Origin: Promethearchaeota archaeon
GTDB lineage: Archaea; Asgardarchaeota; Lokiarchaeia; Sigyniarchaeales; SOKP01
Reading direction: 5' to 3'
Length of the DNA: 64,000 bases
NCBI GenBank assembly: GCA_019058365.1
Contig: JAHPZE010000022.1
Location: forward strand, 1 to 64,000
A program made the translations under genes and the position numbers. The notes below the pieces were generated by a model, which was not told the origin of the DNA, ran no database searches, and saw only the letters and a list, made by a program, of their open reading frames with translations. Below are positions 731 to 54,133 of this stretch, piece after piece; position 1 is the stretch's first letter, and each line of letters opens with the position of its first letter.

Positions 731-756
731 AAGTATTTATTATATATTTAATAAAA
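731..756 (+). promoter_or_regulatory. Possible archaeal TATA-box region for the giant gene
   Basis: AAGTATTTATTATATATTTAATAAAA lies ~16-40 nt upstream of ATG 772, compatible with a leaderless or short-leader transcript. The AT-rich background makes this weak. Confidence 0.3.
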
Positions 757-759
757 AGC

Positions 760-3700
760 GTGAGCAAGAAAATGAGTAAAATGAAACAAAGATCTATAGA
801 AATGAGATCGAAATTGGATAAATACTTGCCAAAAAGTCCAGAATATTCTGAATCGGATTATGAGAAAGATTTTCGATTAGATGAGGATATAGAATTTATG
901 AACTGTATTAAACGCCATGGGATAGAACCGGCAGTGATCAATAGACAAGGGGATGAGATAAAGAGATTAAAGGAGATCGCAATGTACGAATATTTTGGTC
1001 GAGATATCACAAGAGGTCAGGAGATTTTTATAGATAAAATCAAAAATAGATCAGTGCAACCTAAAAGAAGGAGTTGCAAAGTAGGCTCTCGAGATTTCGC
1101 CAAGGTTGCTGGGCCAGAGGATATAGATTTTAAACTCAAAGTAGACTACAATCTTAAGAATTATAGCACAAAAGAAATTGATGAGGAAATCTTTAAAAAT
1201 ACTCCTTCAGGATTAGAATGTTGTATACTTGAGATAGAAGAGAATTCATCTGAATCTGGTGAATCCATTAATAGGAGTGAGGAAATATGTATGGATGTAA
1301 GCAATTCTACCGCCAGTGATAATGGCGCCACCCTAAAAGTAAAACAAGGTGCCTCCCAAAAGTTTCTAAAGTGCTTAAGAATATATCTCCTGTTTATACT
1401 CTTCAGAAATTATCTATGTTTAGTTGCTTTCGCTTCAATCCCTATTTTATTAGCTTTTTTCACTTTTGGACTATACTTCAGTTCATTCTTCTTTTTGTTT
1501 AATATACTTTTCCCGATTCTAGTGGTTTTAGCTGTATGTATATGTCTTATAGTGCCGTATTATTATTTTTACTCCATAAAACCATTTAGAAAGAGAATTA
1601 AGGAGAAGAAGGTCCCTAGTAAGATTTTTTCCTACTCTTATAAAATTATGAGAGGGATTATCATTTCATTGATTTCATTTTTATATCCCTTCTTATATGG
1701 TATCTATTTTACAGTGTCAATGCCTTCAATATTCACGGTATACCTTATCACTTTGGATTTTCTCCTCTATGGATATTGTCTTGTAAAATATATCATTAAA
1801 GGTAATGTCTCATCGCCATTAAGGCTAATTTTCACCGAGATAAGCATCGCATTTCTCTCTCTTTCCGGCATTATTCTTATTGCTAAGGGTCTTATTCAAA
1901 CGCTTTTATATATTATACCCATTTTTATCCTAATATCATATATGGTATATGTACGCCCAATAAAGAATAGAAATATTGAGGATATAATCAATAGAGATCT
2001 TAATCAGAAAATTAAGAACTCTGTTGCCAAAAATCCATTCTTTACAATAATAAAATTTTCTCTTATTTTATGTTGTATTGGTGTTATTTTTTCTCTATTA
2101 CCATTAAACTCAACAGCTTCTGCATTTATGCTTACTTTTTATACAGGAATGATTATTTTTATGGCAGCGCTATGTGGGGTTTTTCTGATAGGTTCCCTTG
2201 TTGAGAACATGAAGAGAAAAAAAGGAAATTTGTGGTGGTCCTTGTTCTTTTTGATAATAGGAGTGATAATTTGTAATTATCTCTTTTTTACGCCTCTTCA
2301 ACTCTTATTAATTCCGATATCAATCGTATTTATCTCTATTTTATTATATACGTGGAATGCCCAAAAAAGTGATAGGAAGGCTCGCCCTGTTTCGCTTATC
2401 AGCTTTTTTCTAATATTCATGACTTTGTTTTTGGCAATACCCTCAATAGTAGATATTACCTCTCCTACCTATGGGTTTGCCCAAGTTCAAAACGCAGACA
2501 GGATTGAAAGATCGGTCAATATTGAGTATTTAGAATACTATTCTTCTTTAGAAGATTTTGAGCTTACCATTAACGATAAATTTGTGGCTAAAAGTGCAAT
2601 AACTCCAAATCTAGGTACCGCATCTACCATGAGAGTGAGGATTACACCAGTAGATGTCCCCTATATAGAGGGGTATCAGATAGAGCGTTATCATGATTTT
2701 ACTTCTGAATCTGTACCTAATTATGATTATACCTATATACATCATTATGATCTTTTTACCTCTGTACCTCTGGACACAGTAGAATTGCTTCCTGGAGAAT
2801 ATGAAATAAAATTATACTACTCCGAGCTAACCTTATCGGGAGTTAGAGACGCTGACCCCGAAATATATACGATTACCCTTGATAAAGATGATCTTGAATC
2901 TCTTCCTTATGAAGATTTTAAGTTAGGAATAGAATATGGGTCAGTCTATACAATTAGAAGAAATAACTCATGGAATATAATTTATAATGGGAAAATCGTG
3001 AATTCGTTACATGAATCCGTGCCGGTAAAGAACGTAAACCTGTATTTTGAGAATTTTGATAAATGGGAAAAAGTAGCTACCGTAGATACTGATCATAATG
3101 GACGGTTTTATTTTAATTATACAAAATTTGGCGATATTGAGGAAAATCCACTCGTAAAGGTGGAATGGAATGGTCAAGATGATGTATTAGGAAGTCTCTA
3201 TCATCCCTTAGAGCATATTGAATATGCGGGGATAGAATGGAATACAGATGATAAATGGTACTTTACTGATGAAGATGGTAATGGGTATCCTCAATGGCCA
3301 TTTACACTTTATGATTTACTTCGTGTCCTCCCGAGTTATGCTGAATCCCCTCTTTCTTCTTCATTGGAGTTTATGGCTGAATTTAATGAAAATTCTGGAT
3401 CAAGTACGTATGACCGCATTCATAACCTCGAAGGTATGTTAGAGGGTAATACATCGTGGACAACTGGGAAACGGGATGGAGGCCTTGGATTTGATGGAGA
3501 GGGTATTGTAAGCGAAGGTGAGTCAATTGGGTCTATAATCTATAATGCTTATGCCAACGTTTCTTATGAATATGGGAGTGGAGGAGGCGGTGTGAGCAAT
3601 TGGCACGCTGAATCAGATTCAGAGCAATCAATTACAAGTTCAAGTTATGCTGAGAAGCATACTTTAGATTTTACTGCTCCTAATCAAGGAGATTATTTAA

Positions 3701-6700
3701 TCATTGTGAGCTGTGAGACTGCTCCCGCTTCAACAAGTTATTCTGTAGGTGTGCGAACGCAGTTAGATGATACAACTACGATTATGGAAGCTTTATACGA
3801 AGGAGTTAATTCTAATAAAGATTTAGAGTATAGATCCGAATCTACTATTTATCTAGCAGAGAGTTTAGCTAGTGGTTCGCACTCAATTGATATTGACGCT
3901 TTACGAGAAGGAGGCACTGCATATATTAGATATGCCCGCATTATAGTTTTGCGACTCGATGATTGGCTTTCCACTTCTGGGATGTATAAATATGGAGCAA
4001 ATGAAGGCGCAATTTCACTTGCAGGTGCAGAGGCATCCTATAGTGATGCCGTATCTATTACTTTTACTCCTGATATTGCCGGAGATTATTTAGTATTAGC
4101 AAGCATGGAGATGTATTGCGGTTATACTAGTGATTCTATTAGTGGTCGAATTAATTATGATAGTGCTTCTGAATATCTTCCAGTAGATAATACTGAAGAA
4201 TCATATGAAAATTATGTTACATATGAATCTAAAGACACAACAGATTGGGAATCGTTTGCATGGGGTGGTATTGTAAATATGCCTACAAGTTCTAAGACAA
4301 TTAAAGTGGAAGCGTGCAGAACTGGGGGAAGCAACGGTAATGCCGACGTAAGACGGAGAAGAATCATTGCCATCCGTATAGATGCCATGAGTGAAGATAC
4401 CGAATCTACGGAAGATGCATCACGCACATCAACGACAAGCCAATGGGCAGATAAATCAACATTAATGTTTACCCCTTCATCTCAGCAAGATTATTTTATC
4501 TTAGGCGGAATTGTTATAAAACCAGATTCAACCAGTTATCCTTCTCATGCAGAATTGACTCATACTGCGGGTACAAGTCCGGAGACTATAAGTTTAATGA
4601 ACGCGGACTCTAAAGATTCTTCAAGTCCAGCAGATTGCATTCCAATGATTGGTATCGCTATTAAAGAATTAAACGCAGAATCTCAAACAATTAAGACCAG
4701 ATATGGATATGCGAATAGTGGAGGAAATACCTATGGCAAGGGCAGCTTTATTATTGCTGTTCCGCTGGGAGGCGAGGGAGGTACTACCCAAGCTGATGGC
4801 ATTGTACGTCCTGATGGTGACGTATCTGCTGAATGGAACGTCTCTCAAGTTAACGATCATTATACTCTTATCGATGAGGTCATATTAGATACAAATGATT
4901 ATATTTACACTTCCAGTAGCGCGAGTGGTACTATTACAGATGAGTTTACTATGGGATACCTTGATATTAGCAGTGGTACAGTCACTCAAATAGCGATAGA
5001 AGTATATGGTGAAGAAATTTCCATTGATTCAACTATAGATGTATATTGCGGGAGTTGGCTAGGTAGCAAACAGTTGGATATGAGTACCGAAGGATTTTAT
5101 ACGTACACCTGGTCTGGGCTTAGTCTATCGCAGACAGATTTAAATGGGTTAAAGATCAAATTTGAATCAGAAGCTCCTCAGGGGCAAGAATCTATTTATG
5201 AAGATTTTGATTATGTTGATTTTGGAGATATTCTAGATAATACACTTGGTACTTCCAATAATGAATTTGTGATTACGGGCTGGATTCATCCTACCCTCTT
5301 CTTATCGAATATATCTGATAATGGTATTCAAAACTGCTTCTTTTCTAAAAATGGAAATATAGAAATAGGAGTTAATGAGTCCGGTTATTTAAATCTCTAT
5401 ATTAAGACAGATACTACAGAAGCAATAGCCTCTTATGGTGTTCCAGGCGCGGTTGCTTTGCATACATGGACATATGTAGCTGTACTTTACAATGATTCTA
5501 ATGTTGATGTGTTTATCGAGGATTTCTTTTATAGATCTGCACTTGGGGGTATTGCAGAACCATGGAGTGGAAGTAGCAATCTTGTAACAGGTGGGGATCT
5601 CATAATAGGGGCGGAATTAAACTCCTATTCATGCTTTACTGGGAAATTAGATGATATCTCAGTGTTTAATTCTTCTATCTCGGATGCAGAGATTGAGAGT
5701 CATGCGGGAGGTCCTACATTAGCAATTGATACCCAAATCTCAAAAGAAGATGGCGAGGGAGGATGGATTCCTATAGTTGAATCTGGGGAGATAATTGAGG
5801 GGTATATTAATTTTGAATGTAATAGCACGGGGAAGCCGATAGAAACCTTAAAATTGTACTTATCTGGAGCCCAACCCGATTTGCAGAATCCCACTCCAAA
5901 TGAATGGAATTTGCTCACTACGTTTAATTATGACGATACATATTATTCTTATCTTGTCAATAGCTATGATCTTCCTAATAGTGACAGTTGGTACTTTATC
6001 TGTAAAGCAACTGATGATATTAATAATGTGGTATACGATTCTTATAGTGTCTATTTTACCACTAATCATACATCTGAAATGATTAATTTTACCTATATAG
6101 ATACAGATGGAAGGATTAATCATAATTCTCAGATCGGTGTAAATGTTTTAGAAGACCTTGAATGGCATATTTCCTCTTTAGATCTATTTATCAATTATTC
6201 CGGCGATATTGAGTACCTTACAAATGTAACCTATAACGATCTTTGTTCAAGCTATTGGTTGATATATTTAGATTCTTTGTCCGATTGGGTTTTTAATAAG
6301 GAATTAGATCCTGATGAGTACACCATCAATTTTATTGTAGAAGTAAACCTCACGTACGATTCCGGATTTTCCAATTATCTTTATAATTATACTTTACCAC
6401 AAGTTACATTGGATATTAAAGCTCCAGATATGGTGCTTGTATCCGGAGATCCATATACCCTTTCATTAGGCTATACTTATGATATTGTTGATAACAACAT
6501 AATAACCATGGCTATTAATTCCACAGATTTTCATTTCACTCATGTTCAACTAGAGTATAAATATAATACCCCTCAAGACGCAGTTTGGAGGACATATAAT
6601 ACCTTTTATGCAGATGGTAATTCACTTGCAGAAGTATCTTTTGATATCATAAATTTACGGGATGACAATATCTCAATTCGATTTAGAGGATATGATGATC

Positions 6701-9700
6701 TTTCTAATAATGAATTGTTTTATGAATCTAATTTTTGGTTTGTGAAAGATTTCAATAATCATTTAGAATTTGTGGTTGAAGGGTTATACAATAATTTTCT
6801 CTATGGGCTTGATCAAGATGATATGGTAGATTTAGAATTACAAATTTTACCTTTCGATAACGATATTTCCAAAGTAGTTATAAGTACAAGCTATGAGACA
6901 TTTACCCTTACAACAATATTTAATGAGTACGATTATATATATTTTGAAGATGTTGGTGCTGAAGAGATAAAGTTAAATGCAACATTTTATAATATCATAG
7001 GGACAGAATTTTCCTACATTCCGATTGAGGTAAAATTGTATCAAGAAACCACTTTGATAACATCAAAGCAGATAATAATTACGGTTACTGATACCATATT
7101 TACAGACCCCGTTCAGATCTCAAATATTGAAGTTGAGACGGGGTATCTATATCCAGCGACCTATAATTTTCAAGAAGATGAAGTAGGTACGAATGGAACA
7201 TCTATAGGATTTGTAAATTCCACAAGTTCTTTAGGTTTAGCAGAGATTACTTCAGCGAAAAATGGTCATAAAAATGTCCTCCATACTCAAGGAGATACTT
7301 CTATTATTGTTTATCATCTATTTGGTTCAGCAAAATATTCTGGAATAATTGAGTTCTGGTTATATTCAAACCTTCCGACTATAGGATGGGATGTTCAATT
7401 TAAGCTTTACAGTGATATAGATGATATCGGTTATTTATTTATTGATCACAACACCGGAATGCTCCGATGGTATGACTTTTCAACATCTATAGATATTTCT
7501 TTGGGAGATATAACAAGACAGTGGAACCATATAAAAATTGAATGGGACGGAAATTCTGTTATAATATATTTGAATGGTGAAAGCGGAGTAAGTGTCAATT
7601 TTGAAAGTGGAAAAAATTCTCCTACAAAGATTGCATTATGTAATTTTGATAGTTTTGAAGCATGGTGGGATGCTTTTGGTTTTAGTTGGGACTCTGAATA
7701 TTATATTGGAACTAATGTCTATCATACAAACCTTCTTGATATTTCAAGTGGATTTGAAAATGAAGATTGGGGTACTTCTGGAACAACTGTAGGATTTATA
7801 GATAATTTAGGGACTGCTGCTAATTGCGATTCAGAAATTGTTCCTGAATTTAATGATCATAAAAAGGTCTGGCGTTTGTATGATAATAATGGAGCAGGTC
7901 AAATATGGACATGTAATTATATAGGTTCGAAAACAAGTGGTACTATTGAATATTGGATGAAAAGTTCAGATGCTGCTAACTTAGCTCTTACTCAATTAGC
8001 AAATACAGGTTGGACAAAATATGCAATTCAAGTTGGAATCGATACTGACGCATTTGTTTATCATAGTAGGATATCAGGCTGGCAGAATATTCCAAATGCC
8101 CCAACACCTCAAGATGATACATGGTATCATATTAAAATTCAGTTTGATTGTAGTACTTATAAATTTCGTATATGGGTTGATAATATTTATTCTGGAGAAC
8201 TTGATTTTTCCAATACTGCGGACGATGCATATTTCTTTGTAATGAGAACAGAGACCGCAGATAGTGGATATTATGCATATTGGGATGCTGTAGGTTATTC
8301 CTGGGATGAAGATTATTGTCTTGGAAGCAATTTAAGAGTAGAACCAGCTAATATATTCATTAGCTTTGAAAATAATCTATATGCCTACAATAATTCTCAT
8401 AGTATACCATTTATTGTAAATAACCACCCTCCAGTTATTAAACTCTATGATTCAAATAATTATCTTTTAGGTATTGCCCAACTACGACCAAATTGTGATA
8501 CATACGGAATGGAATTATATAATACTGAAACAATTGAGATTCTTGATAATCATTTTATTGTATCGCTTCCCATTCCTGGAATCGGAGAAGTTTGCTCTAT
8601 TGAAAAAGTATGGGTGATTGGAACGCAATACGATTTTTCATATTTAATAAATAGTGACGGAGATCTGTTCATCCAACTTATTACTCCAAATAAATTAGAT
8701 GGTATATATGGGGCAGCCTATCCAATAGAAGTGGAGTATGGTATTTCAACGTCATTTAAATCCACAAATCAGTTTGCTGGTAACTTTGATTTTGCCTCAT
8801 TACCACAAGATACCTACACTATCATTTTTGAGTTTTATGACATCTCTGGAGTTACTTCTACATTTGAATTAAATGAGAGTATTTTTATTGATTTTGAAGG
8901 GCCTTATATCTACAATCAATTTCCAGGATCTTCTACTTCCATAAATCCTGATTCTGATTCCATCTCATTCATTATAAATGATATGTCCCCTATTGTAGAT
9001 TATTACTTTAATAATTCCATTAATGGATTTTGGCAAGTAATCGGAGATACTTACACCTTTTATTTCAATGATACTTCAATATCAGAGGGACTAAATTCAA
9101 TTCTCTTTAATTGTGAAGATTCTCTTGGATATACATCTACAAGTTATTTTACTTTACTTATTGATAGAACCGCTCCTGACATCACCTTACTCTCAAAGAA
9201 CTTTGATGAAATCATTACTAAATTATGTTCCTTTGATGTTCTCATTGATGATAACTCCAATTATGACATATCCTTGAAGGTTGTAGATTCCAATACTAGT
9301 GTTGTGTTTAATAATTTAGAATTCATTACGATAGAGAATCCTTCAGATACATGGCAAATTCTTTTTGATACAGGACAACTCCCAGATGGTTATTATGACA
9401 TTTACATATGTGTTACCGATTCTGTAGGGAATTATGCTGAATTACTTATTGATCCCTATTTTGATAACACTCCACCCATAATTGATACACTCATAGAACA
9501 AATCTCTGTGGATGATCAAAATATCTATAATAATACTATTACTGATTCTCTCTATTTCAATGACGAAGAATATCTCTATTTATCCGCTTCTGATATTACT
9601 TCAGATGGTTTTGATTGGGGTAGCATTAGCCCGCTATTAGGAGACCAAAGAGGTGTTCAAAATGTTACAATGTATTATACTATCCCATTAGAATGGTATC

Positions 9701-12700
9701 CCCTCTCAATCTCAGGGAGTTTGGATTATGAGACACTAATTTATGAAATTACGGGTTATGGAGATCCATTGAAGGGCGATCTGACCAAAATCAAGTCCAT
9801 TCAGAACTTGAAAATAGGAGGATATACTGTTGATAAATTCAATATTATTTTGGATGGTACTTCTTTATTGCTCTCTATTGATCCTCAATATCGATACTTA
9901 TTATCCTCAGCTTTTACAGACCAGATTTACGCTCAGTTCTTTGAAGCGGTTGCTGATCCAATTAACTTATCATATAATAGTAATACTCAAAATTGGGAAT
10001 TAATATCTTTAGAAAGAAATTACTTTAACATTTCAGATTATTTGTCTCTTACTGAGGGAAACCAATTTCTTCTTTGGTTCGAATTAAAAGATGGGTTAGA
10101 AAACGAGTTAATTTCTCGTAAATATAATGGCTTTTATGATAATTATATAGGACAAGATCCTCAAGGAGCAGAATCATTTTCATGGTATTTGGGGGCTAAT
10201 TCGAGTGGAGCAGGAATTATTATTTTTGGCTCGGATAATTATCCTGATTCCACGATTCAATTCAATATCTCTTCCATAGAGCTAACTGCTTTAGGAGAAC
10301 AAGATATCCATCGCATAATGATTTATGGTTCAGTTGATTCACAAAATTGGATCTATATTGGAAGAGCGTATTATTCTGGTGAGGAAAATTTATGGAATTA
10401 CTTCTGGGACGGGGATCGATTGGATCCAGTACCACCTCAAAATTATAACCTTAAAGGTCTTTTATTTGATATAGCGGGAAATTATCTTACCCAAACTCAT
10501 TCAATTAAGATTTATGATTATACCCAGATTAATTTGATTACAGATTTAGTGTTTGGGTCGGTATTTGAATTCAATTATACCGCCTATTCAAATATTCAAA
10601 ATATCGGAGGTATGATTGAAAATTATTTTGGCTCCAATAATATATGGGATGTAATTGCTCAGTTTTATTCACCATCGGAACACACATGGATCCCACTTTT
10701 TACAAATCCAACCACAATTCATACCAACGGTTCATATGAAATAACATGGGACATTTCCCAAGATCACGGTTTTCTAGATAATATGTACAACTTTTCTTAT
10801 GGTTATTTGCCATTACAAGTCGCTTCTGCTACATCTTCTGATTTGTGGGGATCATGGGGCACTTTTGGAGATACAATCTGGAAGCCCATAATTATTTCAG
10901 ATGCAAATGGTAATATCAATATTACTATATACCTATTTAATAATGAGACAGGATGGACCGTTGATAGCTCTTTAAGTTCTGAAATAACGATTCCTAACCT
11001 TAGCAATCAGGTATTTAAATTATTTGATATCAATAAAGATAACTCTTATGAAATTCTTAGAGTCTCTCCTGCTCAAATTGACGTGTTGTTCCTCAATCAG
11101 ACCACTTCTCAATGGGAAGTACAATTAGATGTTACACACCTTTCAGGCTATGAATACCAAGCATTTGATATCTCATACGATAGAAGTTCCTCAGATACGT
11201 TTTTATTCGTTACTCAAAAAGAGACCAGTTCAAATCATTTATCCCTCTGGAAATATCAATTTACTAATCAGTATAGCCTTACCCTCATAAAATCTGTGGA
11301 ATGCCCCGAAAATTTCGAACCTTATGCTATAAAATACAGTAATTATTTCTCTGGTTCTGACCGAAAAGCTCTAATTGTAGGGGGCTTGATTACAGACTCA
11401 TACTATTCACAACTCATCGAATTTGATTCGAATCTGAACGTGAAAAATATCATTATTGATGCCATTCTGGGAAAGATATCTCTCATTGAATATGATGATA
11501 TCGGAGGGCTTGATACGATTGTACTAGGAGTGAAGAGAGTGCTCATAGGGAAAATGGATGCGGTTATCACTCTACATAGGACATCCGGAACAGAAGAGTG
11601 GGTTGAATTTGAATTATCTAATTTCGATGAAGTTAGGTTTGAAATTTTTGATCTTTTAACAATTTCTGAAGATTGTATGAAAAAATTAATTATCTCATCT
11701 AATACAGGGCTTTTTGAGACGAAAATTACCTCATTTAAAGATGAATTATCAATAACCAGTCCTATATGTTTTTATTCTGAAACATTTACTATAGGAGAGT
11801 TAGCCCCCAGTTATTATCCTGAAATTATACCAGAAAAGACTCCTTTAAGTGCCGTCAATAAAATTACCTATAAACTCTCAAGCAGTAGTGAATGGAAGGT
11901 ATTAAGTCTTAATAAATATCTAGCTTCTCCATATAAGGTAAAGATGGATTTAACTTCTATATGGACTAATTTAGAATATGTGAAAATCGCATACTCGTTC
12001 AAATCATTTGTCGCAACGGTTCGAACTTCCGTTGATCCTTCATTTAACAATAAAACAGGAGCCTCAGATACGCAATACATATCAGCTTCGGGCACCTTTT
12101 TCGATAACCTCCCCTTAAACTTCCAATGGTTAAACCCGGCAACAAGATATATCGACCCTTATGCCAACTGGATTACTTTACCAAGCTCACTTTCCTATCA
12201 GTATCAACCGGTAATTTCTGGATTAGGAAATACCGTATTTTATCCCGAAGTGTATTATGGAGCGGATAATGGATATCTCCTTGCTCCCGAATTAGAGAAT
12301 TATTTAATAGATTATGGAGATTCGTATGATTCAGGACAGCTATCGCAATATCTAAGCGGACAAGACGATTATTATACTAATATGTTTGACGGTAATTTCG
12401 AAGGGAATTATATAGATTATGTAGCTATGTCCAATCCTTACATTTCAGACAATTACAACTTTGCTGATATGTATTATCCTGAAATTCAAGGCTCCGAAGG
12501 GGTTTATAATTCTTATGGTGATGGTCAATACGTCCTTGTGCGTAATAACCTTATAGACCTTGAACCATATAACTCTAGTGTCAGTATCATATATGATTCT
12601 GGAACTCTTCCTGTGGAACTCACAGCTCATTATTTACGAGAGTTAAAAGATGATGAGCCAGACTCTGATTATACTTATGGAACAGAAGGTGTTGAAGATG

Positions 12701-33700: not shown

Positions 33701-36700
33701 TTGCGTGTGATTTCAAGCTCCAGATTGATCTTGCTGGTGCGAACGCCTTACACCATTTAATATTCAAGCCCGAATTCAGAACTGATAACGAGTATAGCGA
33801 TGATAATGTCGTCGGTATACCTTATTTTGAATTTATAGAGTGGGATGAGGCGCTTACCACCACTGATGAGGATGGAAATCTTGTAATGATGCATATTCTT
33901 GAAAAAGATCTTTTCACCAAAGATAGTCCTCTAGAAATTGCTTATATGTTTAATGATAAACTACAATGGCTAAAATTACCCGAAGATATAGCATTCAATT
34001 GGGAAATTGAAGTAGATGCTTTCAAGAGAAATATCTCTTATCTGTTGCTTCCGAGTGCGTATATAAATCCCGATGATAGTTCTGAAGTAACTTCCTTTGA
34101 AGATGGCGACTTGATTATTCTACGATATAATACACCTGTAGATAAAGCCATCCAAATTGGAGTTGAAAAAATGTATTTGAATAAGAAGCCCGCTAATCCA
34201 TCCCTTCCTTTTGCCGAAGTTATGCTTATAAACACGAATAATTCCATTGATTACAGCACATTTTCAGATCCTTACAGTTATACTTTACCCTTAAATCTTA
34301 CGCCATTCAATACGGAATATTTAGGCACTTACATGGATATTTTAGTTGATATTAACTTAACAACTCTGGAAGAATTTGCAGAAAACGGGTATCTTGACTT
34401 CTCTCATTTAGTGGTTTCTGTTCCAGACCCCGCCTATGAACTCACCTTACATGAAATTGCGATAGTACAAGAATATCAAGACGGCTTAGAGTATTCTGAA
34501 GAATTTTATAGTAGAATATGGCAATTTACAGAACGAGACAACTTTACCTCGACCGATGATCCTGAACATGACCAATATCACTTTACCTACAACAAAACTC
34601 CCCTCTACTATAACGATCCAGACAATGGTAAATGGCTCGAATATCTAAAGATCTATGATGAGAATTACAATTATTATTCCGCAGGTCTTTCCGGTGATGA
34701 GTATCAACTTTTATGGGATCCCGATTCTGGAAACTTCACATGGAATAAAGGTTTTGGTGTGTTCCAAGATTACTGGGGTATGCAAATTGAGCTTCCCGCG
34801 ATGATAGAACCTAATACCACCCTTTATTTCGAATATTGCTATAATGAGTCTTGGAATTCGCCAATTGTGATGCAATATGAAAATATTCTTTTTGAATCCA
34901 TTGATTTGGTCTATAATTGGGATTATTTGCTTACGCCCCGATATGAAATGTGGTATGGAGAAATTTATGATAATACCAATAACGGTTATGATTATGAAGT
35001 AGAACAGTATTATTCCGAAGCATTTTCGGTATATGATGATTCTTCAATCTATTCATATACATTTGAAGCAGATTACAACTTTACTACCGATTTCCTTAAT
35101 ATGTCTTTGTTTAAAGTTATCGGAGTCTATGCCAACTTTACGGAAACCGAGCTTGTAGATGATAATACTAACTATGATATTGATTTTGATATTGACAACA
35201 AAGAAATAACTATTTCGGACCTTATTTCTGGTGATGGCCTTCTCAATCAATTTGATCTGATTACTGTTATTGTAAACTTCACTTCAGGTCCAATTTCCCA
35301 GAGAACCGTTATAACCTTTTCAAATACTTTTAATGAAACCTATCTTTCTGATATTGAATCATCGTTTTATGATTATATTAGCTGCTCTTTTGATTATTCA
35401 GTCAATCAACCATCCTTTCTATTTGCAGAATCCGCTTATCACATAATTTCCGATTCTACCTCATTTATTCCGATTAATTATTCCAAAAATACGGATTTAA
35501 GCTTTGATTTCGGGATTGAAGATTATGATACAAATACCATCTATGAAAAATTTGAAATTCACGAAGACAAATATAATACGATCTATGTAGCTGATTTAGA
35601 TTTTGATGGTGAAGTGGACTATAAACAGGAAATTGATATAGATAAGAATGATAGAATAGACATCACACGCTACGGGATCGATGATCCCGAAAATCCGGGA
35701 GAAATTATTTGGTATCGTATAATACAAGATTTTGAGACTGAAGAAAAAATAATTAATAAACAGCAAGATGAAGAATTAAGAACTAATTGGTTCAAAATAG
35801 CAGATCTTGGAGTCTGGGCACAGCGTTCTGTACAAGAACAATCAAGTACCGTTCAGTTTACAGACACTAAATTCTACAGTGTAAAATTAGATGTTGATCT
35901 CGATGGCTATGCTGATAGCCAGATGACCTATCACCGAGTTACAGATACAGTTATTCATGAAAATATAGTAAATGAATGGACGGCGATAGTTAGTGCTGAA
36001 GCAGATGAATATATGACTATATATATAACTGCAGAAATAATTAACCATCTAACGATAGAATTAATTGAATCATTTGATTATGAAGTATTAAAACAATATT
36101 TAGATTATTCCCAATTTTTAGTTCTAAAAGGCTCCTATACCAAATTTAGAGAAACTTCTATTCTTTCTCACACAGAACAGACCATTCAAGAAGTACTTAC
36201 ATATATAGATTGGGAAGAAGGAGAAGTCACGAGTACTCGATCCTATGTAAATATGTTTTCAGAAGGACTTTCAGAGCTCTCATATAGAAACTTAAAGTCA
36301 GATGTATTTAGCACATTGTCAGTATATAATGAAGACACAGACCAAACACAAGAAATTAGCGGACTTCCTTTTTTCATCGCAAATTTCTCCCAGATCGATT
36401 GGCATACCGAAGTATGGGGTCCTGATGCTGTACCAATACAATTTGATACTCTTTATAGTAGCTATGGTGAAGATGAGAATACAGTTAAAAACTATTATGA
36501 AGGTACCTATTGTATAAACTTTCGCAATCGTTTTAGTCTTTATCACGACTATCAAAAAGATCTTTCTGATGATGTTATAGGCTCAACATTATTTAATGTG
36601 GAAGGTATTTTCATAACTCCCGTAGATGGGAAAGTGTATTTTACATCAACGAAAGCTGCATATCAATCTTCTGACCGTACAATGGCTAAAACTTACGGAC

Positions 36701-39700
36701 ATTATCTTTATTATGACAGCGACAAAAATGGCTTCTACGAAACCGTTTATGTATTAGCTCCTGATGAAGATGAGGATGGAGTATATGATGTTATTTCAAT
36801 TATCTATAATTATGACGGAGACCATGCAATTACGCCATATGAGATAATTAGCACCGAAGAATCATTTACTGGTAATTATATTTCCCGAAAAGTTCTTGGA
36901 ATAGATTTTCACGGTATAATAATTAATGAATTTGGAGGGTCAGTTAATAATCTTAAGGATTGGTTAGATGAGTGGTACGGAGAAATCCATGATGGGTTTA
37001 TTACCAAAGATAATGTGTTTGAGATTTATAAGCTTTTGCCGATAGAAAACGTTAATGAGTTCGCTCCTGCGTTATTTTACGAGGCATATTTAGGAGCTTA
37101 TGGTGATGCATGGAATATGTATCAAGACCAGCTTTGGGATGACGTATGGGAACAAGTTGGAATGATGGCCACTGCGGGATATATATCAGGAGGGGCCTCT
37201 ATAGCGTTAATAGCACTTGGGGCTTCAAATCCAGTGACTGCTCTCATCGGAGGTCTTATTTTCGCCGTTATATACTGCAGTTTAACATTGAGTTCTCAAG
37301 ATGCAAAGCGTCGAGAGCAGCAGAATAAAGTTTCCGCGCAAACCTATTATTCACTTGATTCGGACAATAATCAGCCAACTAATATAAACCAGAAACAATT
37401 GAACGGAGGCACTTGGGAGCATTATTCCGAGCATCCCAGTCCGAAATATATGCCCATATCTACAGGTGAAATAAACCCTCAATATGACGCAAAAGCAATT
37501 GTAACACCACCTGACAGCCTCAGAATCACTGGACGCATGGGCGATTCCAATTTTACGTTCTTCGGTATTGAAGAAAAAGAACTAAACTGGTGGGATAAGT
37601 TTTGGATGAATGTATTTGAGGCTTTAGCTGGAGGTGGCGACGCAATGGCACCAGGTTCTGGTATTAATTTCCCTGAATTTACTGATGCGGAGGAGGAAAA
37701 CATTAGAGATATGCTAAGAGCTGCTTCACATGCCTATACAAATCTGGACTACTTACTTATAACAAGCGAATTGCCATCATATAATATCATTGAATATTAT
37801 GAGTTCGATCATGGAACGGAAGATTATCGCACTATTGCATATGATAATTATAAAAGTAATACGTTAGGATTTTTAGAGCAAACCATGATTCCCGCTTCAA
37901 ATGGAAAGTATAATGCAATAAGACCGATGTGTATTAATGGTCGCCCCGCATACATGTATATTAACAGCAATGATGAGTTCAATCAGCGTATCCAACCACT
38001 TTCACCGTTATATCAACCCGTTGTCATTAGTAATGAGCGATATGGAGTGCTTTTTCCAGACGATACCATCCCAGACTCTACGATTTCAGTTGATATCCAA
38101 AGCGGATTGTTAAACGATTCCTATACTTCAGGTATTGACTCTAATAATCTTACAATTTATGAATATAAGCGAGGGTATAAAGCAAAAATTCCACTCTATA
38201 GCGATGAATTTAACTATCCAATTAGTTTGATCACGGTTGAAGTTATTACTTCAGGTGTAAGTTCAGGTCTATTATCCAGTACTTATTTTGCCACCTATGT
38301 TTCGGAAATCGAGCTTACGTCCAGTCAATATACTCTCGAAGGAGGTAATTTATACTTTTGCGAAACTTTTGATGAGATTATTCTTTCAGCTTTTAATTTT
38401 AAAGTATTGCAAGACGAGTTTCTAGAATTAACTCAGAATTGGGAGGAAGGGACCCTCTTTTATAAAGTTCATATCCACATTCCGCAAGTGATTGCAGATA
38501 CATCTACGACCGCAGGAGTTATCGATACGATATCCAGTGATGCTGGCAGAAGTGCGTTAGCTCAGACCACTCAGTATTTAATTAGTGATTTCTTTAACGT
38601 ATTCACCTTAGCAAAATCATTTGCCGAAGGTGAAGCACAAAAAGATTATACCGTACAAGTTACAGCAATTTCCACCCTGATATCTTCTTTAGCCCTTCTG
38701 CCCGTTGTTTTCGCCTCCGCTGGAGTATCGGGTTTTATTAAAGGTGCGGTTGGCAGGACTATAGGAACAACTGTAGCAAAATATGTTGCGTCGTTGCCAG
38801 TTCAGGTACTACAAGAAGTATATGAAGAGCTTTATATTGACTCATTTATAGAAGAAACATTACAGCATTTGGGCGACTCTACCGGTATCTGGGGCGTTAT
38901 TGTCACTTCATTACGGGAAGCTATACTCGGGCCAGCAGCCGAATTCCTAGGAAGCCTCAGAGGATCTTCAAACGTAGATGTAAATACCCAGATGACCGCT
39001 CAAGAAGTTCAATTACAACAAACAAGTAATATCTTACAATCATTTTTATGGACTGGTCATCATGTTATGCAAGAGGCAACATTAGATAATGCCATCTCTT
39101 CGGACGTATCAACTGAAGCTCAATTATTAAGTAATAATATAAATAAGATTCAAGCCCAACTTGCAGAACTGGGACTTACTCGACAGAAGAATAAAATAAA
39201 GGCAAAATCTATATTCGGCACGGAATTCATAATTCAAGGAATCTTCTCCCTTCCTGGACTCTTCTTTGGCGGGTTCAATTTAGGCGCGATGGGAACGCTT
39301 CTTGACCTGTCAATCGATTATATGTTTGATGTCCAATTATCTCGCCACATGATCGACAATAAAATCCAAGCGGTAACTCAAACGAAGCACAGATTAGACC
39401 TTGAAGCAAAGTATTTAGGATTAGTACGCGATGCACAAACCGTTTCTAATATCCCTCAAGTCAAGTTCGTACTTGCCATGGCACAAGGGATTGCCACCAT
39501 CAACCCAAGCCAATACAGCGCCTCCGAATTCCAAACTCAAGTACAACTGCAAATAAATCAACTCGATGCATTCGGCACAATTATAAGGTCTGTGAAAGAG
39601 AAACAGCAAAAAATCAAAGAAAGGCAGAATCAATTGGAGGTTCTAGGTAGTTCTAAAGAAAATGTCGAGAGTATAGAGCAGAAATTTCAGAATAATCCTA

Positions 39701-42700
39701 ATCCGATACAGCTACATCTCAATCTCGAATTTCTGCCTGGAATGATTGCGTTTGAGCCTCACAGGCAAGCTCTTCGCGTCTGGAGTGAGGAAAATCCAGA
39801 AGGCATCAACCTTAACCCCCCTTCCGATTTAACACTTCCCGAATTTGAGCTCTACATAAAGAATAAATTAGGATTAGATCGAAGCCAAGAAGTTTTTCTT
39901 GCGTTAACCCTAGTTGATGAGAGTACCAATGAGATAATCCAAATCAGAGTTGATGAGAAGATTGGTGATTTAGAGATTGACGATCAAACCACCATTGGTG
40001 AGATTTCCAATGCTATGAATGGATATAATTTATATATAATGCCTCTGACTGCGGGCGCTTGGGGTGGTATTAATTATGATCCAAATTATATTGTACCTAT
40101 TTATGATTGGTTGTTTGAACCCCCTTCTGTAAAGATTATAAGAGAAAAGATGGGAACACTATTTGATTCTGAAATTATATCCAAATATTTTAGTGATCCT
40201 GTATTACAAGAGCAACTTATAAACATATATTACCAAGTTATCACCCCTACAGCTAGAGCTTATTTGGATAAGATTTCTACAGGAACAGTAGGATCCGTTT
40301 TTGGAGCCAATTCTATATTTAGTGGGAAAAATTCGTTTGAATGGATTTCCAGAACTGCAGAATTTTATTATTTGTTACAGTTAGAAAATTCTCCTCAATA
40401 TAAAAATATGAATCTAAAACTAAAGAATGCAAAAATTAAAGAATTCAAAGCATATATCAGTGAAATAATCGAATTTGTATTGAAGCCTCGATTCGAGAAC
40501 ACATTTGATGATGCTAATAAAGGCTTAGATTTTATTAAATCTTTATTAGAAGAGAGTGCCCGATATGCAATTATGGAAATGATTTTGTTACAAATTACAG
40601 ATGGAGGTAAAACTAAATTAGAAGGATCTGAGTTAGCTTCCAAATTAGAAAACTTTTTAGCTAGTTATGACAAGAATAAGTTCATTAAAGAGTTTAATAA
40701 AAAAGGTACTAAATTTGTGCAACTCCGTTTCATGGAGAGCATGCTTACAGGTGAGTGGGATACACAGATGCGCTTTGATTACACTCCATATGAAATTGGC
40801 TGGTACCGTGAGACTTTTTCATTTATGTTCCTTATTAGTGATTCTCTTATTAAATTGTTTTTTGATGATGAGTTTGACTTAATGGCGGGGTATGATAGTA
40901 GTGCAGATAAGCATACAAGAATTCAATTTTATCAGACAATTTCGTATAATCCAAAATATGTTCACAAAGATTTTAAAGATTTTATTGATACCGATCTTGA
41001 AGCCGTTTATAAAAAGTTAAATAATGGGTTAGCTGAAACTTTTGGAAATTTAAAGAAGCAGAATTTCAGAATCACTGACCTCTTCCAGATGTATATTAAG
41101 GGACTAGCATATATCAATTATGCCATCAAGAATTCTAGGACCTCTGATAACGAACTAATGCTTAATAATATCGCAATGGATACTTTAAGCACTATTTTTG
41201 GTGCGTTCTTTAAAAAAATATCTGATAAAGGTACAGCAGCTGAGATTGAGAAACAAATAGAAGTATTAGTAGTTGCTAGTAAGGTTGGAGAGATTGCTCC
41301 TATTGGTAAGATTATTAATACTATAGTAGAGACGCATAAATTAAGTCAGCTCCATCAAGCGGGAAAAGAAGATGGTTTTTGGGTAGAGGGTGAAGGAACA
41401 GGTAAAGGTCCTGACCAAATGGAATTCTATATTACTATAGCAGATAAAATAAATGAGAAGTTAAAATCAGAGTCTATTGATAGATCCGATATTAATAAAG
41501 TTGTAAAGAAAATTCAATCTTATTTAAAAGATGTGGATTTCAAAGATGAAATTAAAGATATAGCTAAAGATATTTTAGGAGCAGCCTATAAAGATATGGC
41601 GGTCAGTGAGATTTATAATATTGTTAATAAAGAGTTCATAGGGGGTAATCTGAAGAGAATACTTAAACAAGATGATCAGGGTAACTATCAACTTGAGTGG
41701 GATATAACAATAAATGTATATAAACGTACTGATATTGATATTGACGAGGCAAAATTAGCGAATTCAGGACTTTTCTTTGTTATAAAAGATAGAAGTGGAA
41801 AATTAGCTAAGATGACTTATTCCCAAGTTAAGCAAATGTATCCTAAATTTGATTTTAAACAAGCATGGATAGCCGTAAAGGATAGGAATAGTGGCAATGG
41901 ATTAATGTCAGCAACAGAGAAGATCAATGATTTACCAGATTCATTGGAGAATGATATTTCAGATAAGTTTGGGGATATTGAAGGAGTCTATATAACAGAC
42001 CATAGTGGAAAACTCTTACTCGGAAGGATATTTCTTGACAAAGATTTCTATGAATTTGCTGTTATGGAGGATGCAGAGATTTCTCAGCTCTTAAGAGAAA
42101 GTATAGAGCATATTAAGAATTATGATTTCCCCGGCGCTGATAGGATCAATGAATTTTTCCATCTTACATATTTACGTTCGATTTCTTGGAAGACGGGAGG
42201 GAGAATTAGCTCAATTATTCAAGATGTTGATTCAGCAATCATCCCTACAGGACCTCATAAATCAATTTTTTCCATAGAGAGAGCAGCAGTTATTCTAGGG
42301 AAAGAACATGTGATACTCAATCCAGACCGAAATAAAATTACTGAATTGAAAGGGGAATTATCTGCATTATTGAATGTTATTAATCAACTAGGTGGACTGT
42401 ATACTTCCCACGAATTATATAAAGAGAGTGAAATAACTCCTAAGATATTTCCAACTAAAGATTTTGCCAATTTACATTCAAAAGAGAAGATATTTGGAAT
42501 TAATGAATTTAGAACAATGTTAGAAAAAGTGGTGCCAAAGCAAGGAGGGTGGCTGCACAATAAAGATCCTTCCAACCCGTTACTTTCAGATTATTGGTAT
42601 GAACATCTTGCACGATTTTCTGAATATTCTTATAATAATAAGCTAACAAAGGAACAATTTTATAAGAATTGGCTTTTAATAATTCAGAATGATTTAGAGA

Positions 42701-48032: not shown

Positions 48033-48084
48033 ATAATCACATCTCTTTTTCTCATTTAATTAAATTTAAAATTTAAAAATTTAT

Positions 48085-52880: not shown

Positions 52881-52906
52881 ATTTTTTTTTAATATTAATC
52901 TTCTTG

Positions 52907-54019: not shown

Positions 54020-54133
54020 TTAAAATTAACACCTTATATTATATTATATTAACAATATTATCCTAAATTCAATAATCTTAAAATACTTTTTAAAATATCT
54101 TTATCATGATAACACAGAATTTAAAACGGTAAA

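What the first reader, a model, noticed from the sequence alone, without database searches (positions are those of the whole stretch)
760..44406. Exceptional size: an intact 43.6-kb archaeal gene
At 14,548 aa it is much longer than halomucin (9,159 aa), the classic giant archaeal protein. It is also largely non-repetitive at DNA level, which argues against an assembly-inflated repeat. Staying stop-free in AT-rich DNA implies purifying selection on the full length.
Basis: partly seen in the sequence, partly recalled or inferred. Interest (0 to 1): 0.7.

Follow-up and report, generated by a model that had tools for sequence, protein, structure and literature searches.

The report
Giant Asgard surface protein gene
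A real, uninterrupted 43.6-kb gene of a Loki-type Asgard archaeon encodes a 14,548-residue membrane-anchored surface protein; its size is typical of a family of 11,000-20,600-residue proteins whose exchangeable ends, free of sugar-attachment sites, travel with a matching partner gene, as in bacterial cell-to-cell toxin systems.

Summary
Window 760-44406(+) is one stop-free ORF of 14,548 aa in 34%-GC, essentially non-repetitive DNA, in an archaeal (Promethearchaeota, Loki-type Asgard) genome.

"Exceptional" holds only in part. In species-representative genomes of the same GTDB family I found 22 other open frames longer than halomucin. All are single frames. Two are longer than this one, up to 20,619 aa in the same genus. 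Surveys already report >10,000-aa proteins in Asgard archaea.

Architecture:
- a cytoplasmic N-terminus and about 11 TM helices;
- a roughly 11,560-aa acidic ectodomain with at least 6 ConA/LamG-like domains;
- a conserved module with a hydrophobic helical hairpin and a ubiquitin-like domain ending in GG;
- a 1,445-aa tail of unknown fold.

Tails differ between orthologs. They almost never contain N-X-S/T sequons (2 observed against 158 expected in 16 orthologs). The gene at their 3' end co-varies with tail type; here it is a cytoplasmic LRR protein. Relatives carry orphan module+tail cassettes.

My best reading (about 0.5) is a polymorphic-toxin-like contact-delivery system. No toxin domain was found, and nothing is shown experimentally.

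The scan has noted the same family and the same reading in other genomes.

The parts
760..44406 (+). Giant ORF, 14,548 aa plus stop
   Evidence: collinear single-frame orthologues
760..1395 (+). N-terminal ~212 aa, charged, no signal peptide; inferred cytoplasmic
   Evidence: sequence; positive-inside reasoning (inference)
1396..2451 (+). Polytopic membrane anchor, aa 213-564. The hydropathy scan helices. I read 11, because aa 495-531 holds two, giving N-in/C-out. K/R-rich loops alternate, and one sequon (N450) lies in an inferred outside loop.
   Evidence: topology is inference. Orthologues also begin with a charged region followed by TM helices.
2452..37155 (+). Ectodomain of ~11,560 aa. Acidic (per 500 aa, D+E 58-102 against K+R 11-33), Tyr/Ser/Thr/Asn-rich. 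145 N-X-S/T sequons (128 expected). Almost no internal repeats.
5212..5694 (+). Laminin_G_3 (ConA-like lectin) domain, aa 1485-1645
   Evidence: Pfam PF13385, E 2.3e-15, 57.5 bits
7150..8334 (+). Two tandem ~195-aa ConA/LamG-like cassettes (aa 2131-2326, 2332-2525)
   Evidence: 3 of 5 cassettes hit Laminin_G_3 below threshold, best 1.4e-6
21559..22749 (+). Two further tandem cassettes of the same kind (aa 6934-7130, 7133-7330)
25606..26259 (+). Fifth cassette (aa 8283-8500)
24190..25587 (+). Best-conserved body block (aa 7811-8276), used as the family probe A1
37057..40068 (+). Conserved pre-tail module (aa 12,100-13,103). Also found in ORFs of 1-3.5 kaa and in other giants, in 44 of 135 genomes of the family.
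37156..37293 (+). Gly/Ala-rich hydrophobic helical hairpin (aa 12,133-12,178)
   Evidence: The AF2 model has helices at residues 3-53 and 58-95 with pLDDT 76-87.
37747..38499 (+). Alpha/beta domain of unknown fold (aa ~12,330-12,580)
   Evidence: AF2 pLDDT 75-93. No PDB match was listed for this part, but the search lists were filled by the Ubl domain.
38659..38715 (+). Second hydrophobic helix (aa 12,634-12,652), lying within long helices
39217..39309 (+). Third hydrophobic block (aa ~12,820-12,850). Homology with same-genus orthologues ends about here.
   Evidence: sequence; homology ends at aa 12,788-12,841
39691..40068 (+). Ubiquitin-like beta-grasp domain (aa ~12,977-13,103) ending in Gly-Gly at the tail junction
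   Evidence: AF2. VIA-align Z 6.4-7.5, 83-98 residues aligned, to LC3/Atg8/GABARAP and USP Ubl domains, over model range 878-1004. Foldseek E 0.05-0.4. GG is aligned in one homologue, P0007.
40069..42339 (+). Tail module A (aa 13,104-13,860), Lys-rich, no sequon, no known family
42280..44403 (+). Tail module B (aa 13,841-14,548), mixed alpha/beta, no known fold
   Evidence: AF2 pLDDT 75, pTM 0.75; Foldseek best E 0.88; VIA wide best Z 4.5
44424..46046 (-). Partner gene: 540-aa LRR protein with a conserved non-LRR N-domain and no signal peptide. Convergent, 17 nt from the giant gene's stop.
   Evidence: Pfam LRR_8/LRR_14. Orthologues abut the 3' end of related tails at 9 other loci.

Best explanation
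SHOWN. This is a genuine single gene of a Promethearchaeota (Loki-type Asgard) archaeon. It belongs to a family of 11,000-20,600-aa proteins confined almost entirely to one GTDB family.

INFERRED from sequence. The protein starts in the cytoplasm and is held in the cell's own membrane by about 11 TM helices. It extends a ~11,560-aa acidic, lectin- and Ig-domain-bearing, probably N-glycosylated stalk outside a cell that, in cultured relatives, has no S-layer.

SHOWN by comparison. Beyond the stalk lies a module conserved across many proteins: a hydrophobic helical hairpin, an alpha/beta domain, long helices and a ubiquitin-like domain ending in GG. After it comes a C-terminal tail of 800-2,000 aa. 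The tail differs between close orthologues, is almost wholly free of N-glycosylation sequons, and is always flanked at its 3' end by a gene whose family follows the tail type. Here that gene is a cytoplasmic LRR protein.

INFERRED mechanism (about 0.5). The system is polymorphic-toxin-like and contact-dependent. The stalk reaches a neighbouring cell, and the hydrophobic helices insert into the target membrane. The unglycosylated tail is passed across, perhaps released at the GG, and acts inside. Kin are protected by the cognate LRR (or other) partner.

What the tail does biochemically is unknown.
For: - Gene reality.
- Orthologues as single giant frames. They are 40-60% identical and collinear over aa ~430-12,800.
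- Tails of four same-genus orthologues share no detectable similarity with one another (one 137-aa exception), while the bodies align. Across 16 orthologues the tails fall into a few mosaic types.
- Sequons in own gene: 145 in the ectodomain (128 expected) but 0 in the last 2,085 aa (14.6 +/- 3.4 expected).
- Sequons elsewhere: 2 against 158 expected in the C-parts of 16 orthologues, and 7 against 206 in 34 tail homologues.
- Sequon control: none of 77 other long ORFs of this genome with at least 8 expected sequons has one or none; the lowest ratio is 0.29.
- Partner co-variation, LRR type: an LRR protein with a shared N-domain lies next to own and 9 other loci that encode a tail or a tail-bearing gene (7 show blastp similarity to own tail): G101, G057 x2, G065, G064, G092a, G121b, G102.
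- Partner co-variation, small-protein type: a 115-190-aa protein family lies on the same strand, sometimes in tandem, next to the G003-type tails of G003, G080, G113b and G092b.
- Orphan cassettes: stand-alone genes begin inside the module at G101:C8 and G120:C64. G137:C185 shows the series giant gene, small ORF, fragment 40% identical to the giant's last 160 aa, paralogue of the small ORF, orphan module+tail, LRR gene.
- LRR immunity proteins (Imm-LRR) are a recognised class (PMC3482391).
- Loki cells lack an ordered S-layer and carry complex protruding surface proteins (PMC9834061).
Against: - No toxin or enzyme domain was found in own tail (Pfam, PDB sequences, ESM Atlas, AF2 with Foldseek and VIA). 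None was found in the last 480-800 aa of 15 orthologues either.
- The tails are 5-10 times longer than typical toxin domains.
- In this window the LRR gene is convergent, not co-transcribed.
- The same LRR family has 8 further paralogues in this genome that are not next to any module copy.
- This genome has no orphan cassette.
- Topology after aa 12,133 is unresolved, and the stand-alone homologues have no signal peptide. A ubiquitin-like domain, LRR partners and an Arf-like partner would also fit a cytoplasmic tail.
- The AF2 model of the module is of middling confidence (pLDDT 61).
- There are no expression, protein or toxicity data.
- Related genomes are not independent samples.
Confidence: 0.5

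Rival explanations
1. Structural or adhesive envelope protein with a cytoplasmic signalling tail. The stalk mediates cell-cell or cell-substrate contact, or stands in for an S-layer. The chain re-enters the membrane at aa ~12,133-12,652. The C-terminal ~1,900 aa, including the ubiquitin-like domain, sits in the cytoplasm, where it binds LRR or small-GTPase partners to couple outside contacts to the cytoskeleton or to membrane remodelling.
For: - LamG and Ig-like domains and an acidic glycoprotein-like body.
- Hydrophobic helices before the tail.
- The LRR partner lacks a signal peptide.
- An Arf-family GTPase lies next to G024's tail.
- Ubiquitin-like folds are normally cytoplasmic.
- Stand-alone module+tail genes lack signal peptides.
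- The LRR family has 8 other paralogues in the genome.
- Loki cells display many surface proteins (PMC9834061).
Against: - A permanently cytoplasmic tail gives no reason for near-total loss of N-X-S/T sequons (ratios 0.01-0.03), while other proteins of the genome average 1.09.
- Tails unrelated between same-genus orthologues, arrays of orphan cassettes and fragment-plus-paralogue series are hallmarks of conflict systems, not of housekeeping signalling.
Confidence: 0.3
2. Cargo of a mobile element, like the giant 'Otus/Ephialtes' genes of Heimdallarchaeial aloposons. On this reading its size and patchy distribution reflect selfish spread rather than a host function.
For: - Patchy distribution: 20 of 135 genomes in the family, 6 of 53 in the genus, and 1-3 or more copies per genome.
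- One strong hit in a different family, G227.
- No flank synteny with G003, G014 or G024.
- GC3 of 0.273 against 0.194 in ten neighbouring genes.
- Giant genes on Asgard mobile elements are known (PMC8813620).
Against: - No relative in 2.9 million viral contigs.
- No integrase, tRNA or repeat boundary in the window. The neighbours are ordinary metabolic genes.
- The contig starts 759 nt upstream of the gene, so the 5' flank is unseen.
- Mobility would not exclude either function above.
Confidence: 0.08
3. Assembly chimera, or a dead, unexpressed relic frame.
For: - The genome is a 54-contig assembly with 6.6% estimated contamination.
- The contig begins just upstream of the gene.
- There is a sharp compositional change at nt ~40,070.
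Against: - The chance of an open frame is 10^-489.
- Collinear single-frame orthologues exist in many independent assemblies.
- Homologues span the compositional break.
- Coding periodicity holds in 14 of 15 blocks of 1,000 codons.
- There are no repeats to collapse or inflate.
Confidence: 0.02

Closest known systems
Giant (>10,000 aa) uncharacterised proteins of Asgard archaea noted in surveys (West-Roberts et al. 2023, bioRxiv 10.1101/2023.11.21.568195; PMC11573180; Extended Data Fig. 7 of PMC8813620)
   Same: Asgard origin. Length above 10,000 aa. One Laminin_G_3 domain near the N-terminus with otherwise no Pfam domains. Annotated 'hypothetical protein' in databases.
   Different: Those papers count and list such proteins. 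They describe no architecture, variable tail, sequon pattern or partner gene. This gene is a further member, not one of the proteins they discuss by name.
Bacterial polymorphic toxin systems (CdiA/CdiI, Rhs, MafB; Zhang et al. 2012, PMC3482391), including the Imm-LRR immunity class
   Same: A long surface stalk. A conserved pre-toxin-like region. C-termini that differ between orthologues. An adjacent gene that follows the C-terminal type. Orphan cassettes that start inside the conserved region.
   Different: - No TPS, FHA, RHS, VENN or HINT element and no recognised toxin domain.
- The anchor is an N-terminal polytopic TM domain rather than a secretion system.
- The stalk is about 11,500 aa and non-repetitive.
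- Tails are 800-2,000 aa.
- The junction is a ubiquitin-like domain ending in GG.
- The host is an archaeon with N-glycosylation, and the tails avoid sequons.
Halomucin (Hmu) of Haloquadratum walsbyi, 9,159 aa
   Same: A very large secreted or surface archaeal protein. It is the usual size benchmark.
   Different: Halomucin is described as mucin-like and protective (PMC11573180 mentions protection from desiccation). This protein is 1.6 times longer, membrane-anchored by TM helices, non-repetitive and from another phylum. I did not compare the two sequences directly.
Giant bacterial repeat adhesins (e.g. SiiE of Salmonella, PMC6272769)
   Same: Extended surface proteins with lectin or Ig-like domains that bridge to another surface.
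   Different: Those adhesins are built from dozens of near-identical tandem repeats and are exported by type I secretion. Here only about 7% of the chain repeats, at 25-33% identity.
Aloposon giant genes Otus/Ephialtes of Heimdallarchaeia (PMC8813620)
   Same: Giant genes of Asgard archaea with patchy distribution.
   Different: Those are tandem pairs of 3,000-6,000 aa on tRNA-integrated elements with a ParA-like gene set. None of that is seen here.

Membership tests
Giant LamG-type 'huge proteins' of Asgard archaea (survey class, PMC11573180 and bioRxiv 10.1101/2023.11.21.568195) | Length above 10,000 aa in one open frame | tested here: met
   14,548 aa, no stop
Giant LamG-type 'huge proteins' of Asgard archaea (survey class, PMC11573180 and bioRxiv 10.1101/2023.11.21.568195) | Archaeal, Asgard host | tested here: met
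   Archaeal SSU rRNA in the same assembly. Orthologues occur only in Promethearchaeota/Promethearchaeia MAGs.
Giant LamG-type 'huge proteins' of Asgard archaea (survey class, PMC11573180 and bioRxiv 10.1101/2023.11.21.568195) | One Laminin_G_3 domain near the N-terminus and little else recognisable | tested here: met
   PF13385 at aa 1485-1645, E 2.3e-15. Only weak Big_3_3/Big_13 hits besides, and nothing in the other 9,548 aa.
Polymorphic toxin systems (Zhang et al. 2012, PMC3482391) | N-terminal export or anchoring determinant followed by a long extracellular stalk | tested here: inconclusive
   TM helices at aa 213-564 and a positive-inside pattern put the stalk outside. This is inference only. 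The stalk is not made of RHS or FHA-type repeats.
Polymorphic toxin systems (Zhang et al. 2012, PMC3482391) | C-terminal region varies between orthologues whose upstream parts are conserved | tested here: met
   Bodies are 40-60% identical. The tails of own, G003 and G024 show no similarity to one another, and G003 and the truncated G014 share only 137 aa. A few mosaic types occur among 16 orthologues.
Polymorphic toxin systems (Zhang et al. 2012, PMC3482391) | Adjacent immunity gene specific to the C-terminal type | tested here: inconclusive
   The family of the neighbouring gene follows tail type at about 20 loci. Protection was not tested. In this window the LRR gene is convergent, and 8 paralogues lie elsewhere in the genome.
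Polymorphic toxin systems (Zhang et al. 2012, PMC3482391) | Stand-alone (orphan) cassettes that can replace the C-terminus | tested here: met
   Seen in relatives: G101:C8, G120:C64 and the array in G137:C185. None in this genome.
Polymorphic toxin systems (Zhang et al. 2012, PMC3482391) | A C-terminal domain with toxin activity or a recognised toxin fold | tested here: inconclusive
   No Pfam, PDB-sequence or Atlas match for own tail. The tail B model has no fold match. Tail A was not folded. No Pfam family in the tips of 15 orthologues. Activity was not testable.
Polymorphic toxin systems (Zhang et al. 2012, PMC3482391) | Pre-toxin motif or releasing peptidase at the junction | tested here: inconclusive
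   No known pre-toxin or HINT domain by Pfam. Instead a ubiquitin-like fold ending in GG sits exactly at the junction. Cleavage was not tested.
CdiA / two-partner secretion toxins | TPS domain, FHA repeats, VENN motif, CdiB partner | tested here: not met
   No such Pfam family anywhere in the protein or among ten neighbouring genes.
Halomucin-like proteins | Sequence relatedness to halomucin | not tested
   No halomucin sequence was fetched. The comparison is by length only.

The most novel reading that the evidence does not exclude
Loki-type Asgard archaea use half-micrometre-scale, membrane-anchored stalk proteins to push a large unglycosylated effector into neighbouring cells. The effector is fused behind a ubiquitin-like domain and is freed at its Gly-Gly by a ubiquitin-type protease. 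Cytoplasmic LRR or small-GTPase-type partners decide whether the recipient is harmed. This would be an archaeal contact-dependent delivery system built from eukaryote-like parts, in the lineage whose cell-cell contacts are invoked for eukaryogenesis.
Probability: 0.2. Interest if true: 0.85.

Novelty: new variant of a known kind. Interest (0 to 1): 0.5.

Why it matters
As a size record it matters little. Proteins of this size are a recurring feature of one Loki family, and a 20,619-aa relative exists in the same genus.

The organisation matters more. The lineage closest to eukaryotes, which lacks an S-layer and lives in obligate cell-cell partnerships, invests about 1% of its genome in one surface protein. 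The exchangeable, sequon-free end of that protein and its matching partner gene look like a contact-dependent conflict or recognition system, and polymorphic toxin systems are regarded as rare in archaea (PMC3482391).

The sequon pattern gives a simple sequence-only marker for protein segments that are exported yet must stay unglycosylated. The tail/LRR pair gives a directly testable hypothesis.

Tried and rejected
- Pfam on the whole protein in three pieces gave only Laminin_G_3 and weak Big domains.
- phmmer of all three pieces against PDB sequences found nothing. A profile of the five cassettes against PDB gave nothing below E 0.03.
- ESM Atlas gave no usable hit for the tail or for the N-terminal 620 aa.
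- HMMER of tail aa 13,104-14,303 against 1.84 billion representatives gave only 34 hits, all without Pfam domains among the five long ones scanned.
- The AF2 model of tail B was searched with Foldseek/PDB (best E 0.88) and VIA-align wide (best Z 4.5, helical hairpins only). No fold assignment resulted.
- The global MAFFT alignment A2 of tail homologues was poor and I dropped it.
- Flank synteny with three orthologous loci: none.
- Viral contigs: no relative.
- tRNA and Rfam scans of the window: nothing.
- The search for homologous proteins returned only 'hypothetical protein' fragments of 800-7,400 aa, so it could not be used to rank lengths.
- Pfam on the last 480-800 aa of 15 orthologous tips found no nuclease or other family. 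I therefore could not reproduce on these loci the nuclease tips that other notes of this scan report for other genomes.
- dN/dS was not attempted, because divergence is too high.
- A full ranking against all archaeal proteins in GTDB was not possible with these tools.
Full report
**1. The observation.**
The ORF listing returns one ORF at 760..44406 (+) of 14,548 aa starting with GTG. The frame runs 14,557 codons stop-to-stop from nt 733. The frame has no stop, and the other five frames of the same DNA carry 879-1,853 stops. With this base composition a stop is expected every 13.4 codons, so a chance open frame has probability about 10^-489.

The window has no N. GC1>GC2>GC3 holds in 14 of the 15 blocks of 1,000 codons; the final 548-codon block is the exception, with GC3 0.318 above GC2 0.296. 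TRF finds one trivial 34-nt array, and the repeat finder finds only four short imperfect families. The claim that the DNA is largely non-repetitive is therefore right.

At protein level a windowed self-BLAST finds five ~195-aa cassettes, 25-33% identical, at aa 2131-2326, 2332-2525, 6934-7130, 7133-7330 and 8283-8500. It also finds two short pairs. Together these make about 7% of the chain.

The next-longest frame in the 4.74-Mb, 54-contig genome is 3,293 aa.

**2. The organism.**
The window is G000:C47:1-64000. The assembly holds an SSU rRNA that scores 1,451 bits on the archaeal model, the best of its clan. All nine loci in species-representative genomes that encode a relative of a conserved body block are titled Promethearchaeota or Promethearchaeia MAGs. 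These are Loki-type Asgard archaea. Metagenome hits include the LAZR01 and LCGC14 marine-sediment records.

**3. Is the size exceptional?**
I used a profile of the block aa 7811-8276 (alignment A1). Of the 135 genomes in the same GTDB family, 20 have a match, spread over 7 of 13 genera. Of 265 further genomes of the phylum, one has a match.

- The matches lie in open frames of 11,241-14,833 aa as a rule, with 20,619 aa in G024, which is in the same genus.
- Shorter frames occur mostly on short contigs.
- Counting frames longer than 9,159 aa gives 22 besides this one. Two of them are longer.
- G121 has three such frames (13,906, 13,858 and 14,552 aa).

I fetched three same-genus loci. G003 is a complete frame of 12,745 aa, G024 a complete frame of 20,619 aa, and G014 at least 11,803 aa, cut by the contig end. 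All are collinear with this protein at 40-60% identity from aa ~430 to ~12,800.

The conservation of one frame over more than 12,000 codons in many species is the evidence for selection. dN/dS would be saturated at this divergence.

The literature already covers the general point:
- archaeal proteins above 10,000 aa are few and are mostly in Asgard archaea (bioRxiv 10.1101/2023.11.21.568195);
- the commonest archaeal huge-protein architecture is one N-terminal Laminin_G_3 domain with unknown function, and 12 huge proteins were counted in Lokiarchaeota (PMC11573180);
- many unrelated giant genes exist across Asgard archaea (PMC8813620).

The gene is real, and it is large for an archaeon. It is an ordinary member of its family.

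**4. Anatomy.**
*N-terminus and anchor.* The first 212 aa are charged and have no signal peptide. Residues 213-564 hold hydrophobic helices separated by short K/R-rich loops. I read aa 495-531 as two helices, which gives 11 TM helices with the N-terminus inside and the following chain outside. The only sequon in this part that lies in a loop (N450) falls in an inferred outside loop. This topology is inference. Orthologues have the same kind of start.

*Ectodomain.* The next ~11,560 aa are strongly acidic; the whole protein has 2,218 D+E against 899 K+R. They are rich in Y, S, T, N and I, and they carry 145 N-X-S/T sequons against 128 expected. Pfam sees Laminin_G_3 at aa 1485-1645 and weak Big_3_3 and Big_13 hits near aa 2840-2920. 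Three of the five cassettes hit Laminin_G_3 below threshold, so they are ConA-like domains too. I did not fold any part of the body. That it is a chain of beta-rich domains is an inference.

*Pre-tail module.* From aa ~12,100 the character changes. An AF2 model of aa 12,100-13,103 was built on 29 homologues and has mean pLDDT 61. It shows:
- a long helical hairpin that contains the Gly/Ala-rich hydrophobic stretch aa 12,133-12,178 (pLDDT 76-87);
- an alpha/beta domain at aa ~12,330-12,580 (pLDDT 75-93);
- long helices that include a second hydrophobic stretch at aa 12,634-12,652;
- a poorly predicted helical region;
- a beta-grasp domain at aa ~12,977-13,103.

VIA-align places the beta-grasp domain on LC3/Atg8/GABARAP and USP ubiquitin-like domains at Z 6.4-7.5, with 83-98 aligned residues. 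The alignments end at the Gly-Gly of aa 13,102-13,103. Foldseek E-values for the same hits are only 0.05-0.4. The fold assignment is therefore moderate.

*Tail.* The last 1,445 aa are Lys-rich with near-neutral charge. They have no Pfam, PDB-sequence or Atlas match. Only 34 relatives turn up among 1.84 billion representative proteins. Those relatives show that the tail is two modules, A (to aa ~13,860) and B, which also occur apart. Module B folds with pLDDT 75 and pTM 0.75 into a mixed alpha/beta structure with no convincing PDB neighbour.

**5. Comparative evidence on function.**

(a) *Variable tails.* Homology with the same-genus orthologues stops at aa 12,788-12,841. Their tails of 1,000-1,900 aa match neither this tail nor each other, apart from 137 aa shared by G003 and G014. 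Across 16 orthologues the C-terminal parts fall into a few divergent, mosaic types. Own tail groups with those of G102, G121b and G065.

(b) *Conserved module.* The module aa 12,100-13,103 is far more widespread than the giant body. It occurs in 44 of 135 genomes, often in many copies, in frames of 1,000-3,500 aa as well as in giants. Two of these are bounded stand-alone genes that begin inside the module: G101:C8:79142-85003 (1,954 aa) and G120:C64 from nt 23418 (2,318 aa).

(c) *Sequons.* The last 2,085 aa of this protein have no N-X-S/T, against 14.6 +/- 3.4 expected from shuffles.
- C-terminal parts of 16 orthologues, whatever their type: 2 observed, 158 expected.
- The 34 tail homologues: 7 observed, 206 expected.
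- Bodies: 1.13-1.31 times expectation.
- Genome-wide, ORFs of at least 400 aa: 1.09 times expectation. None of 77 ORFs with at least 8 expected sequons has fewer than 0.29 of expectation.

Such depletion needs selection. The simplest reason is that the tails pass the outer face of the membrane, where N-glycosylation acts, and must stay glycan-free.

(d) *Neighbouring genes.* The gene abutting the 3' end follows tail type.
- In this window it is a 540-aa LRR protein (44424-46046, minus strand, 17 nt away).
- Its orthologues share a non-LRR N-domain at 36-44% identity and have no signal peptide. They abut the tail-encoding 3' ends in G101, G057 (two loci), G065, G064, G092a, G121b and G102.
- G003, G080, G113b and G092b share another tail type. 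They are followed on the same strand by members of a small 115-190-aa family, in tandem in G113b.
- Other tails are followed by other LRR proteins. G024's tail is followed by an Arf-family GTPase.
- This genome has about 25 LRR genes in 4.74 Mb, nine of them with this N-domain. Repeated adjacency is therefore not chance, although related genomes are not independent.

(e) *An orphan array.* In G137:C185 the giant gene is followed, in order, by:
- a 156-aa ORF;
- a 185-aa ORF that is 40% identical to the giant's own last 160 aa;
- paralogues of the 156-aa ORF;
- a 1,283-aa orphan module+tail;
- an LRR gene that overlaps the orphan's stop.

This is the layout of orphan toxin/immunity arrays in bacteria, and LRR immunity proteins are a named class there (Imm-LRR; PMC3482391).

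**6. Mechanism.**
I commit to a polymorphic-toxin-like, contact-dependent system with probability about 0.5. The stalk is anchored in the producer's membrane. The C-terminal ~2,400 aa are the working end, with hydrophobic helices for insertion into a target membrane. A sequon-free tail is transferred. The Gly-Gly of the ubiquitin-like domain is a possible release point. The cytoplasmic neighbour acts as cognate protector.

Shown are the gene, the family, the variable tails, the sequon pattern, the neighbour co-variation and the orphans. Inferred are the topology, export of the tail, transfer, release and any toxicity.

The evidence against this reading:
- no toxin domain in this tail or in 15 orthologous tips;
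- very long tails;
- a convergent partner gene in this window;
- eight unlinked paralogues of the partner;
- no signal peptide on the stand-alone forms.

The main rival (0.3) is an adhesive or structural envelope protein whose C-terminal part is cytoplasmic and signals through LRR or GTPase partners. It fits the eukaryote-like parts. It explains neither the sequon loss nor the cassette arrays. Cultured Lokiarchaeia lack an ordered S-layer and show complex protruding surface proteins (PMC9834061), which suits either reading.

**7. Other points.**
- The flanks are not syntenic with three orthologous loci.
- No relative occurs in viral contigs.
- The gene's GC3 (0.273) is higher than that of ten neighbouring genes (0.194).
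- The contig begins only 759 nt upstream, so the 5' context is unknown.

**8. Relation to earlier notes of this scan.**
After I had reached the reading above I looked up other notes. The scan has reported the same family in several other genomes with the same interpretation: swappable tips, LRR partner, no sequons. Some of those notes report nuclease tips. I could not reproduce nuclease tips by Pfam on the loci I fetched. These notes are AI notes and not independent evidence.

**9. Verdict.**
"Exceptional" is only partly supported. The gene is a new member of a known but uncharacterised class of giant Asgard proteins. Its most likely mode of action is a new variant of polymorphic toxin systems.

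Noticed in passing
window 37,150-44,403 (aa 12,464-14,548), and the C-terminal parts of 16 orthologues (loci L014, L018, L068-L080): Near-total absence of N-X-S/T sequons in the tails. Own tail has 0 against 14.6 expected, 16 orthologues have 2 against 158, and 34 homologues have 7 against 206. The bodies and the rest of the genome sit at or above expectation.
   Followed up: yes
window 44424-46046 (-): A 540-aa LRR protein with a conserved ~190-aa non-LRR N-domain and no signal peptide. Orthologues sit at the 3' end of related tails at 9 other loci. Eight further paralogues lie elsewhere in this genome (C35, C49, C48, C16, C40, C30, C11, C39).
   Followed up: yes
L068 (G137:C185:36001-50000): An array downstream of a 12,291-aa orthologue: small ORFs with paralogues, a fragment 40% identical to the giant's last 160 aa, then a 1,283-aa orphan module+tail followed by an LRR gene.
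   Followed up: partly
window 39,691-40,068: A predicted ubiquitin-like beta-grasp domain ending in Gly-Gly exactly where the variable tail begins. The best structural neighbours are LC3/Atg8 and USP Ubl domains (Z 6.4-7.5).
   Followed up: partly
window 51462-57298: A cluster that looks like UDP-GlcNAc synthesis: a PGM/PMM-family mutase (51462-52880), a SIS-domain protein (52907-54019), a GlmS-like amidotransferase (54134-55990) and a GlmU-like nucleotidyltransferase with hexapeptide repeats (55994-57298). It might supply N-glycan precursors, but I found no link to the giant gene.
   Followed up: no
window 46575-50838 (-): A three-gene run: an FGGY sugar kinase, a CCG/4Fe-4S protein and an FAD-linked oxidase (GlcD/GlcF-like).
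   Followed up: no
window 760-44403 compared with 44424-61088: GC3 of the giant gene is 0.273, while ten neighbouring genes together have 0.194. This may reflect different codon usage or a different history.
   Followed up: no
window 471-779 (+): A 102-aa ORF that overlaps the start of the giant gene by 20 nt. It has no Pfam match, and its status is unknown.
   Followed up: partly
G227:C57:14703-16097 (another GTDB family of the phylum): The only strong match to the body block outside the home family (676 bits, frame of 11,809 aa). It could be a transfer or a mis-binned contig.
   Followed up: no
L018:18365-19219 (G024:C13:148365-149219): An Arf-family small GTPase gene directly downstream of the 20,619-aa orthologue, in the position where other loci have LRR or small partner genes.
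   Followed up: no
L008:1215-1316 (G000:C35): A 102-nt tRNA match next to the 16S rRNA gene. It is longer than a standard tRNA, so it may contain an intron.
   Followed up: no
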